Positions 1,089-1,120 of a stretch of DNA of 12,728 nucleotides are shown here, in pieces. The stretch spans positions 1 through 12,728 of the IMG/VR virus record IMGVR_UViG_2585427793_000006; one strand, written 5' to 3'. How positions within the stretch are numbered: position 1 is the stretch's first letter; each line of letters starts with the position of its first letter. This DNA comes from a virus. Taxonomy: Duplodnaviria; Heunggongvirae; Uroviricota; Caudoviricetes. A model generated the notes under the pieces. It saw only the letters and a list, made by a program, of their open reading frames with translations. It was not told the origin of the DNA and searched no databases. A program made the position numbers and the translations under genes.

Positions 1089-1120
1089 ATGACGATCGAT
1101 ACCATCATATCGATCGTCGT
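1089..1120. promoter_or_regulatory. Perfect 11-bp inverted repeat (GACGATCGATA, 6-nt loop, TATCGATCGTC) carrying two GATC Dam sites, upstream of com. Candidate Dam/OxyR-type control region of the mom promoter and/or terminator of the upstream fibre fragment
   Basis: Read directly: arms at 1091-1101 and 1108-1118, GATC at 1094-1097 and 1112-1115, followed by GTTTTA. Mu Pmom is known to be controlled through upstream GATC sites (Dam methylation blocking OxyR binding). Confidence 0.45.

What the first reader, a model, noticed from the sequence alone, without database searches (positions are those of the whole stretch)
1089..1120. Palindrome with two Dam GATC sites upstream of com: candidate methylation-sensitive switch
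An 11-bp perfect inverted repeat, GACGATCGATA (6-nt loop) TATCGATCGTC, carries GATC at 1094-1097 and 1112-1115, about 75-100 bp upstream of the com ATG. Mu mom expression is known to depend on Dam methylation of upstream GATC sites that otherwise allow OxyR repression. Mu has three such sites and only two are visible here, with the left edge abutting the truncated fibre gene. The same hairpin followed by GTTTTA could also act as a terminator insulating mom from upstream transcription.
Basis: partly seen in the sequence, partly recalled or inferred. Interest (0 to 1): 0.5.

Follow-up and report, generated by a model that had tools for sequence, protein, structure and literature searches.

The report
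Dam-sensitive OxyR operator of com-mom
The palindrome is the centre of a known kind of methylation-sensitive repressor site that keeps a phage's toxic DNA-modification gene (mom) switched off; here it is a natural version with two methylation sites instead of three, so it is a recognisable relative of the phage Mu and E. coli agn43 switches, not something new.

Summary
GACGATCGATA (1091-1101) and TATCGATCGTC (1108-1118) form the only perfect short-loop inverted repeat in the window. GATC sits at 1094 and 1112, 98 and 80 nt before the com ATG (1192).

It is homologous to the Dam/OxyR region of phage Mu Pmom and to the E. coli agn43 operator. All three share ATAG-N7-CGATC-N14/15-GATCG-N7-xxAT. 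I read two OxyR half-sites, 1082-1096 and 1113-1127, with centres 31 bp apart. The palindrome is the inner part of this larger dyad.

Mu's third GATC is not hidden on the left. It is the promoter-proximal site, and here it reads CATC (1125-1128).

Among 79 distinct com-mom upstream regions, 76 carry 2-3 GATCs at phased positions (-31, -18/-19, 0, +13). Twenty close variants keep both arms almost invariant.

A terminator role is not supported, because there is no conserved T-run and the scan made no call.

One point stays unexplained. Flank bases that the OxyR consensus leaves free covary to preserve the mirror symmetry.

OxyR binding and Dam dependence are inferred from sequence, not tested. 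Verdict: a new member of a known kind, of modest interest.

The parts
1082..1127 (.). Whole inferred OxyR operator: two half-sites with centres 31 bp apart, mirror-symmetric about 1104/1105
   Evidence: Scores 13/20 against ATAGnTnnnAnCTAT x2 at offset 31, tied for the best of 12,682 positions in the window. Homologous to Mu region I and the agn43 operator. The dyad axis is shared by 18 lineages.
1082..1096 (.). OxyR half-site I, ATAGATTATGACGAT. The outer tetramer ATAG carries no GATC; the inner tetramer CGAT lies inside GATC1.
   Evidence: 8/10 consensus matches, one of only two such 15-mers in the window. ATAG is invariant in window, Mu and agn43. Register -30 is a consensus peak across lineages.
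1113..1127 (.). OxyR half-site II, ATCGTCGTTTTACAT. The inner tetramer ATCG lies inside GATC2; the outer tetramer is ACAT.
   Evidence: 5/10 matches here, against 7/10 in Mu and 8/10 in agn43. Register +1 is the strongest consensus peak across lineages, mean 6.6/10 against a background of about 2.7.
1091..1101 (.). Left arm of the 11-bp perfect palindrome (GACGATCGATA)
   Evidence: invariant in 19 of 20 class-B variants
1102..1107 (.). Centre or loop (CCATCA). The dyad axis lies between 1104 and 1105.
   Evidence: The first two positions vary among class-B variants. The axis at -7.5 relative to GATC2 is the symmetry peak in 18 lineages.
1108..1118 (.). Right arm of the palindrome (TATCGATCGTC)
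   Evidence: invariant in all 20 class-B variants
1094..1097 (.). Dam site GATC1 (homologue of Mu GATC1)
   Evidence: the GATC-N14-GATC arrangement is conserved across divergent com-mom cassettes
1112..1115 (.). Dam site GATC2 (homologue of Mu GATC2)
1125..1128 (.). CATC at the exact position of Mu GATC3 (13 nt after GATC2): the lost third Dam site
   Evidence: Alignment to Mu. CATC is present in all 20 class-B variants. GATC-to-CATC is the substitution experimenters use to remove methylation while keeping the OxyR consensus.
1131..1146 (+). Positional homologue of the Mu C-activator binding site (Mu TTATGCCCCAATAACC; here GTGTGGTTAAATATCC). Inferred site for the phage's Mor/C-family late activator.
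   Evidence: Same offset from GATC2 as in Mu. A ...AATAACC-like element follows the GATC cluster in all lineages. C binds a 16-bp dyad centred at -43.5 (PMC2582627). A related prophage encodes a Mor-family protein. Weak inference.
1182..1188 (+). Shine-Dalgarno sequence AGGGGGA of com
   Evidence: Sequence; largely conserved (16 of 20) among class-B variants
1192..1377 (+). com, the zinc-ribbon translational activator of mom and first gene of the regulated operon
   Evidence: Pfam PF10122; RefSeq annotates a Com family protein in the 99.7% identical E. coli E300082 locus
1298..2035 (+). mom, the DNA adenine-modification enzyme and regulated toxic gene
   Evidence: Pfam PF25680, 3.9e-75; RefSeq CDS; 88% nucleotide identity to Mu com-mom from position 1202 onward

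Best explanation
Window 1082-1127 is the Dam-methylation-sensitive OxyR operator of the com-mom operon of a Mu-like transposable prophage. The 11-bp palindrome is its inner core.

The site consists of two OxyR half-sites: ATAG-N7-CGAT at 1082-1096 and ATCG-N7-ACAT at 1113-1127. Their centres lie 31 bp apart, which is the extended spacing described for reduced OxyR. They are arranged as mirror images about 1104/1105. The two inner contact tetramers sit inside CGATCG, so each carries a Dam site.

Inferred mechanism, by homology with Mu Pmom and agn43:
- When both GATCs are methylated, an OxyR tetramer cannot bind. The weak promoter just downstream can then be switched on by the phage's Mor/C-type late activator.
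- When they are unmethylated, or hemimethylated after replication, OxyR binds and represses com-mom. This limits untimely expression of the toxic Mom enzyme.

This lineage has lost Mu's third, promoter-proximal methylation site (GATC to CATC) but keeps the position within the half-site.

Shown here: homology, consensus match, phasing, conservation and dyad axis. Inferred: OxyR binding, its methylation sensitivity, the repressive outcome and the exact promoter.
For: (1) Homology. The MAFFT alignments to Mu and to Mu plus K-12 agn43 show a conserved ATAGA..ACGATC..(N14/15)..ATCGATCG..ATC..AATA.CC. GATC spacing is 18 here, 18+13 in Mu and 19+13 in agn43.

(2) Consensus. The site scores 13/20 at offset 31, tied for best in the window. 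Half-site I scores 8/10. Mu scores 7+7 and agn43 8+8.

(3) Register. Across 21 lineage representatives the OxyR half-site consensus peaks at exactly -30 and +1 relative to GATC2 (5.8 and 6.6 of 10, against about 2.7 background). The resulting 31-bp separation fits the reduced-OxyR binding mode (PMC3953959; PMC2909390).

(4) GATC phasing. 76 of 79 distinct upstream regions of cassettes with Mom at least 72% identical carry 2-3 GATCs at phased spacings 18, 18+13, 13, 31+13 or 19+13.

(5) Symmetry. Mirror symmetry peaks at one axis in 18 lineages (0.55 against 0.27 +/- 0.05). That axis is 1104.5 in the window.

(6) Purifying selection. 1 of 22 arm columns is polymorphic, against 41 of 90 elsewhere (p = 1.7e-4).

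(7) Module boundary. In other E. coli prophages with a different upstream gene, similarity starts at 1077, 5 nt before ATAG.

(8) Hosts. The element occurs in E. coli, which is Dam+ and OxyR+; 49 of 5426 complete genomes carry this version.

(9) Literature. Dam and OxyR govern Pmom transcription (PMC3378877; PMC2909390).
Against: No experiment on this sequence exists, so binding and methylation sensitivity are inferred.

Half-site II is a poor consensus match (5/10), and part of every score comes from the GATCs themselves (ATCG and GAT give 3-5 of 10 points automatically).

One of the three Dam sites of the validated Mu and agn43 operators is missing. I could not retrieve the primary papers that say how many methylated sites are needed.

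The promoter -10 element and the transcript start between 1147 and 1191 could not be identified confidently. The activator site is diverged from Mu's.

Mirror covariation at positions that the OxyR consensus leaves free is not predicted by a fixed host-protein consensus.
Confidence: 0.75

Rival explanations
1. The hairpin is an intrinsic terminator or insulator. It would stop read-through from the upstream tail-fibre operon into the toxic com-mom genes, either instead of or in addition to acting as an operator.
For: The stem is stable (-17.6 kcal/mol as RNA, z = -4.1). It lies about 40 nt after the stop of the upstream ORF at 1050. TTTT follows the stem in this window.
Against: The terminator scan makes no + strand call at the palindrome. 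The T-run is not conserved: it is GGTTTGC in most class-B variants and is absent after the equivalent dyad in Mu, L176, L210, L093, L212 and L006. In Mu the gin stop codon lies between GATC1 and GATC2, and the hairpin there is not better than shuffles (-8.5 kcal/mol, z = -0.6). A related prophage has what look like intrinsic terminators elsewhere, with a GC stem and T7 run. Rfam finds nothing.
Confidence: 0.08
2. The dyad is selected as a nucleic-acid structure (DNA cruciform or single-strand hairpin), or as the site of another dyad-symmetric factor such as a phage regulator or SeqA. OxyR would be secondary or absent.
For: Mirror covariation is seen at positions the OxyR consensus leaves free. 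At -2..-4 against +2..+4, 26 of 42 position pairs are Watson-Crick in 14 lineage representatives (p = 4.6e-7), and all four pair types occur. In the count of structure pairs, 0 of 500 shuffles reach the observed covariation, and slid controls score far lower. The palindrome is perfect and invariant in class B.
Against: The experimentally validated Mu site lacks the extended palindrome (7-bp arms, fold not significant), so the extension is not needed for the known switch. The symmetry axes coincide with the expected two-fold axes of an OxyR tetramer (-7.5) and dimer (+8). The outer ATAG...xxAT tetramers are conserved as well. Quasi-palindrome template switching could perfect palindromes without any selection (my own knowledge, not tested here). 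An 18-bp GATC spacing is out of helical phase for cooperative SeqA binding (from memory).
Confidence: 0.1
3. The site is a decaying relic of a Mu-type operator. It lost one Dam site and has a weak second half-site, so it no longer regulates anything.
For: GATC3 is lost and half-site II scores only 5/10. The activator site and the spacing to com are diverged, with 11 nt fewer than in Mu.
Against: The arms are almost invariant while neighbouring non-coding columns vary (p = 1.7e-4). The same two-site layout recurs in independent lineages: L007, L215, L093 and L212. com and mom are intact. 49 complete E. coli genomes keep the element.
Confidence: 0.05

Closest known systems
Phage Mu Pmom upstream 'region I' (three GATC sites bound by OxyR when unmethylated; Bolker & Kahmann 1989; Hattman & Sun 1997)
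   Same: It occupies the same genomic position, immediately upstream of the activator site of the com-mom promoter. ATAG, GATC1 and GATC2 are homologous, with an identical 18-bp spacing. The OxyR-consensus score is comparable (13 against 14 of 20). The downstream genes are the same, at 88% nucleotide identity from 1202.
   Different: The third GATC reads CATC (1125-1128). The palindrome is extended from 7-bp to 11-bp perfect arms. The C-site sequence is diverged, and there are 11 nt fewer before com. The upstream neighbour is a tail-fibre remnant and not gin. The host phage has a different backbone with a single Mor-family activator.
E. coli agn43 (flu) OxyR/Dam phase-variation operator in cryptic prophage CP4-44
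   Same: The architecture is the same: ATAG-N7-CGATC-N15-GATCG-N7-CGATC. It aligns with the window over about 70 nt, including a downstream AATAACC. Its flanks are also mirror-symmetric (AAAC..GTTT). Dam and OxyR compete for overlapping sites (PMC13337833).
   Different: agn43 has three GATCs spaced 19+13 and better half-sites (8+8). From memory, its operator lies downstream of the transcription start and produces heritable ON/OFF phase variation. Whether mom phase-varies is unknown (PMC2909390).
Salmonella/P22 gtr and opvAB OxyR/Dam switches
   Same: GATC pairs 13 bp apart lie inside single OxyR half-sites, and half-sites are spaced about 31-32 bp apart as for reduced OxyR (PMC2909390; PMC4856963). 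The same 13-bp and 31-bp phasing is seen across com-mom lineages.
   Different: Those systems have three or four half-sites and four GATCs, with alternative OxyR occupancy that both activates and represses. Here there are only two half-sites and two GATCs, both on the inner tetramers.

Membership tests
Mu-Pmom-type OxyR/Dam operator | Lies immediately upstream of the activator site and promoter of a com-mom operon | tested here: met
   com starts at 1192 and mom ends at 2035. The site is 80-110 nt upstream, at the same offset from the C-site homologue as in Mu.
Mu-Pmom-type OxyR/Dam operator | Two OxyR half-sites (ATAGnTnnnAnCTAT) in a helical phase compatible with a tetramer | tested here: met
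   8/10 plus 5/10 at a 31-bp offset, tied for best in the window. The registers are conserved across lineages. The spacing fits the reduced-OxyR mode. Part of the score comes from the GATCs themselves.
Mu-Pmom-type OxyR/Dam operator | Dam GATC sites overlapping OxyR contact tetramers | tested here: met
   GATC1 (1094) overlaps CGAT at 1093-1096. GATC2 (1112) overlaps ATCG at 1113-1116.
Mu-Pmom-type OxyR/Dam operator | Three GATC sites, as in Mu | tested here: not met
   Only two are present. The third position reads CATC. Comparative data show this feature varies within the family: 26 distinct two-site (spacing 18) and 16 two-site (spacing 13) upstream regions, against 25 of the Mu type (spacing 18+13).
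Mu-Pmom-type OxyR/Dam operator | OxyR binds unmethylated DNA but not fully methylated DNA, and expression requires Dam unless oxyR is deleted | not testable with these tools
   Needs EMSA or footprinting, and reporter assays in dam and oxyR hosts.
Intrinsic (Rho-independent) terminator | G+C-rich stem directly followed by a U-rich tract | tested here: not met
   The stem has 5 of 11 G-C pairs. Only 4 T follow it, and the scan makes no call there.
Intrinsic (Rho-independent) terminator | Stem and U-tract conserved in relatives | tested here: not met
   The stem is conserved within class B only. The T-run is degraded to GGTTTGC in most variants and is absent in other lineages.
agn43-type heritable phase-variation switch | OxyR site with clustered GATCs in the same phasing | tested here: met
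   Three-way alignment and spacing comparison.
agn43-type heritable phase-variation switch | Heritable ON/OFF lineages with sites protected from methylation in OFF cells | not testable with these tools
   Needs single-cell reporters or methylome data from lysogens. The literature says it is unknown even for Mu mom.
Known RNA family (Rfam) | Match to a curated covariance model | tested here: not met
   No hit at E <= 1 in 900-2400 on either strand.

The most novel reading that the evidence does not exclude
The mirror-symmetric covariation of flank positions that the OxyR consensus leaves free occurs in this site, in other com-mom lineages and in agn43. It could mean that OxyR/Dam operators are selected to extrude a hairpin or cruciform, or to bind a further dyad-symmetric factor. 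Methylation would then act partly through DNA structure and not only by blocking OxyR contacts. The perfect 11-bp palindrome here would be the extreme case of that selection.
Probability: 0.1. Interest if true: 0.55.

Novelty: new member of a known kind. Interest (0 to 1): 0.3.

Why it matters
The site gives a natural two-site version of a classic epigenetic switch. The third GATC is replaced by CATC, the same substitution experimenters introduce to remove a methylation site without disturbing OxyR binding.

The survey shows four phased positions (-31, -18, 0, +13). Different lineages fill different subsets of two or three of them. This suggests that two methylatable sites on one OxyR tetramer site may be enough, and it offers ready-made natural variants for testing how the number and placement of sites tune OxyR-Dam competition.

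It also supports annotating the region upstream of com in about 1% of complete E. coli genomes as regulatory DNA and not as leftover tail-fibre sequence.

Tried and rejected
- **Primary papers not available.** Bolker & Kahmann 1989 (PMC401183) and Hattman & Sun 1997 (PMC147061) are not held. The OxyR footprint limits, and the number of methylated sites needed in Mu, therefore rest on memory and on secondary citations.
- **Megablast to Mu.** It finds nothing upstream of 1202. Only the global alignment revealed the conserved island.
- **Genome scan with one protein.** The genome-contig scan gave only 4 loci. The profile scans of viral and metagenome contigs were needed.
- **Late-activator motif.** I compared intergenic regions of the related E300082 prophage to locate it. 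The shared AGCCGGTAAATCCGGCTTTTTTT upstream of the lysis and protease genes looks like a terminator. Its TAAAT similarity to 1139-1143 is at a different spacing, so I rejected it as evidence.
- **Promoter.** No convincing -10 element or transcript start was found between 1147 and 1191. Candidates GTATCT (1165-1170) and TATTAC (1174-1179) are both weak and variable.
- **Canonical 22-bp OxyR register.** It scores 12/20. The 31-bp register fits the cross-lineage data better.
- **Leftward promoter-like hit.** TCGATA-16-CATAAT inside the palindrome is within chance expectation (1.2 per region), so I did not pursue it.
- **Rfam.** No match.
- **Methylome literature.** A search for undermethylated GATCs near mom in lysogens found nothing useful.

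Full report
**1. The observation**

The window reads ...GTATAGATTATGACGATCGATACCATCATATCGATCGTCGTTTTACATCATG.... The repeat finder reports arms 1091-1101 (GACGATCGATA) and 1108-1118 (TATCGATCGTC), 100% complementary with 6 nt between them. GATC occurs at 1094 and 1112, 98 and 80 nt upstream of the ATG at 1192.

The ORF 1192-1377 matches the Pfam Com zinc ribbon. The overlapping ORF ending at 2035 matches the Mom family at 3.9e-75.

The palindrome is the only perfect short-loop inverted repeat of at least 10 bp in the 12.7 kb window. It folds at -17.6 kcal/mol as RNA (z = -4.1) and -10.8 kcal/mol as DNA (z = -3.6), and no shuffle does as well. GATC is not enriched in the window as a whole (42 against 52 expected).

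**2. Context**

Positions 1-2116 are the right end of a Mu-like transposable prophage. The stretch 1-2119 is 99.7% identical to E. coli E300082. There a 34-kb prophage with Mu transposase, a Mor-family activator, a Mu-like head and tail, com and mom sits inside mhpA. Other copies are inserted next to gspE and irp1.

From 2117 onward the window is 95.8% identical to the tail module of phage phiP27. The match starts inside the homologue of gene P27p43. So in the source, the Mu-like element appears to have transposed into a phiP27-like prophage.

Megablast similarity to Mu itself begins only at 1202, inside com. The regulatory region has diverged.

**3. Homology of the site**

A global alignment with Mu shows a conserved island in otherwise diverged DNA:
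- Mu: ATATAGAAAACGACGATCGAATCAATTAAATCGATCGGTAATACAGATCGATTATGCCCCAATAACC
- window: GTATAGATTATGACGATCGATACCATCATATCGATCGTCGTTTTACATCATGTGTGGTTAAATATCC

ATAG, GATC1 and GATC2 are conserved, with the same 18-bp spacing. Mu's third GATC lies 13 nt after GATC2, and the window has CATC there (1125-1128). So the missing site is the promoter-proximal one. It was not lost on the left next to the fibre-gene remnant.

The Mu C-activator dyad (TTATG....AATAA; C binds a 16-bp dyad centred at -43.5, PMC2582627) has a diverged positional counterpart at 1131-1146.

The E. coli K-12 agn43 regulatory region aligns with both sequences over about 70 nt. It has the same plan: ATAGAATAAAACGATC-N15-GATCGTTTATATCGATC, with GATC spacing 19 and 13.

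**4. OxyR half-sites**

I used the published half-site consensus ATAGnTnnnAnCTAT (quoted in PMC2909390 and PMC4856963).
- 1082-1096 scores 8/10, one of two such 15-mers in the window.
- 1113-1127 scores 5/10.
- The pair at a 31-bp offset scores 13/20, tied for best of 12,682 positions.
- In the same register Mu scores 7+7 and agn43 scores 8+8.

Across 21 lineage representatives anchored on GATC2, the consensus match peaks sharply at registers -30 and +1 (means 5.8 and 6.6, against about 2.7 background). [quoted passage not shown] It is also the spacing found in the gtr switch.

One caveat applies. The GATCs themselves contribute several of the matching positions. The outer ATAG does not depend on them.

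**5. Comparative survey**

I collected 216 loci encoding Mom relatives. Among 79 distinct upstream regions of cassettes with Mom at least 72% identical, the GATC spacing patterns are:

| Spacing pattern | Distinct upstream regions |
|---|---|
| 18 only (as in this window) | 26 |
| 18+13 (Mu type) | 25 |
| 13 only | 16 |
| 31+13 | 6 |
| 19+13 | 3 |
| none (truncated or deleted copies) | 3 |

So there are four phased positions (-31, -18/-19, 0, +13), and each lineage fills two or three of them. GATC3 has been lost in three different ways: CATC here, TATT in L007 and GATT in L215. The more distant cassettes surveyed (Mom below about 72% identity; 36 upstream regions) show no such cluster, apart from one isolated 13-bp pair (L109).

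The window's version of the region occurs in 49 of 5426 complete E. coli genomes. In prophages with a different upstream gene (DUF4376), similarity begins at 1077, 5 nt before ATAG. This marks the left edge of the module.

**6. What the palindrome is**

Over +/-24 bp in 18 lineages, mirror complementarity peaks at a single axis, 7.5 nt left of GATC2 (0.55 against 0.27 +/- 0.05). There is a smaller peak at +8, the centre of half-site II. In the window that axis is 1104.5, the centre of the palindrome.

The palindrome is therefore the inner part of a 46-bp dyad-symmetric operator. It consists of the two inner contact tetramers (CGAT and ATCG, each inside a GATC) plus their flanks.

Among 20 distinct close variants, 1 of 22 arm columns is polymorphic, against 41 of 90 elsewhere between ATAG and the ATG (p = 1.7e-4). 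The first loop positions vary.

**7. Mechanism (inferred)**

For Mu, Dam and OxyR together govern Pmom transcription (PMC3378877; PMC2909390). From memory of the primary papers, which I could not retrieve, OxyR binds the unmethylated three-GATC region and represses. Methylation abolishes binding, and hemimethylated DNA is still bound.

By homology I propose the same for this site:
- Methylation of A1095 and A1113, and of their partners on the other strand, keeps OxyR off. The Mor/C-type activator can then fire the promoter late in infection.
- Unmethylated or newly replicated DNA is bound by OxyR and stays silent.

With only two methyl marks per tetramer site, repression on hemimethylated DNA might be tighter. 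This last point is speculation.

**8. Rivals**

*Terminator.* The scan makes no + strand call at the palindrome. The T-run is GTTTTAC here but GGTTTGC in most variants, and it is absent in other lineages. In Mu the gin stop codon lies between GATC1 and GATC2, and the hairpin there is insignificant. Rfam has no match. A partial insulating effect in this particular lineage cannot be excluded.

*Structure or another factor.* At flank positions -2..-4 against +2..+4, 26 of 42 position pairs are Watson-Crick across 14 lineage representatives (p = 4.6e-7), and all four pair types occur. Examples are GAC..GTC here, CACC..GGTG, TAGC..GCTA, GTTC..GAAC, and AAAC..GTTT in agn43. The pair-count tool finds that 0 of 500 shuffles reach the observed covariation, and slid controls score far lower. 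A fixed host-protein consensus does not predict this.

Possible causes are palindrome-perfecting template-switch mutation, DNA-shape readout by OxyR, selection for a hairpin, or an extra symmetric factor. It remains unexplained. However, the validated Mu site lacks the extended palindrome, so the extension is not required for the known switch.

*Relic.* Conservation of the arms and the intact com and mom genes argue against this.

**9. Verdict**

This is a Mu-Pmom-type, Dam-sensitive OxyR operator in a natural two-GATC form with an unusually perfect inner palindrome.

It is a new member of a known kind. Interest is modest, because the system has been known since the 1980s. The cross-lineage phasing rule, the CATC replacement and the unexplained mirror covariation are small additions that can be tested.

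Noticed in passing
window 2040-2125 (junction at about 2116-2119): The Mu-like prophage ends at about 2116 (...GATTTTGCGCGCTTTA). From 2117 the window is 95.8% identical to phage phiP27, starting inside the homologue of gene P27p43. A transposable Mu-like phage therefore appears to have inserted into a resident phiP27-like prophage. ORF 2053-2325 is a chimera across the junction.
   Followed up: partly
window 580-1077: ORF 580-1050 carries only the N-terminal tail-fibre domain (Pfam phage_tail_N). RefSeq annotates the equivalent of 580-918 as a pseudogene. Other prophages have a DUF4376 gene there instead, and similarity to them begins at 1077. The com-mom regulatory module therefore has a sharp recombination boundary 5 nt before ATAG.
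   Followed up: partly
L217 (E. coli K-12 NC_000913.3 2071294-2071376) against window 1070-1150: The agn43 regulatory region, which lies in cryptic prophage CP4-44, aligns with the mom upstream region beyond the OxyR site. The alignment includes an AATAACC at the position of the Mu C-activator site. This suggests that the agn43 switch descends from a mom-type phage promoter region. The annotated sRNA IsrC starts at the first agn43 GATC.
   Followed up: partly
L055 26328-26426 and 18773-18986 (E. coli E300082 prophage): An identical GAAGCCGGTAAATCCGGCTTTTTTT hairpin with a T7 run, followed by TGCCTyCCGCA, lies upstream of both the lysis gene and the head protease gene. These are probably paired terminator and late-promoter modules. 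This prophage has only one annotated Mor-family activator, where Mu has Mor plus C.
   Followed up: no
L056 2501-2600 (E. coli bR_120_Kylling): This is a deletion derivative. The operator is intact, and an A-to-T loop change makes the arms 12 bp. It is fused directly to the last 100 nt of mom, followed by a canonical Mu right end. The class-B operator therefore also travels on phages with true Mu ends.
   Followed up: no
window 1086-1113, minus strand: A leftward sigma-70-like match (TCGATA-16-CATAAT, 9 of 12) lies inside the palindrome. It recalls the divergent momP2 promoter of Mu but is within chance expectation (1.2 per region).
   Followed up: no
window 1150-1163: The block AGCCCTCCGGG(T/C)GG between the activator-site homologue and com is nearly invariant among class-B variants and contains a small GCCC..GGGC inverted repeat. 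Its function is unknown. It replaces the T-stretch spacer of Mu Pmom.
   Followed up: no
window 1-1093: There is no GATC in the first 1093 bases of the window. The first two GATCs in the window are those of the palindrome.
   Followed up: no
L181, L197, L206 and relatives (Mom about 78-80% identical): This lineage lacks GATC1 (it has AATT there). Its perfect 9-bp palindrome, AATCGATCG-N7-CGATCGATT, is formed by GATC2 and GATC3 instead, so it is centred on half-site II and not on the tetramer axis.
   Followed up: partly
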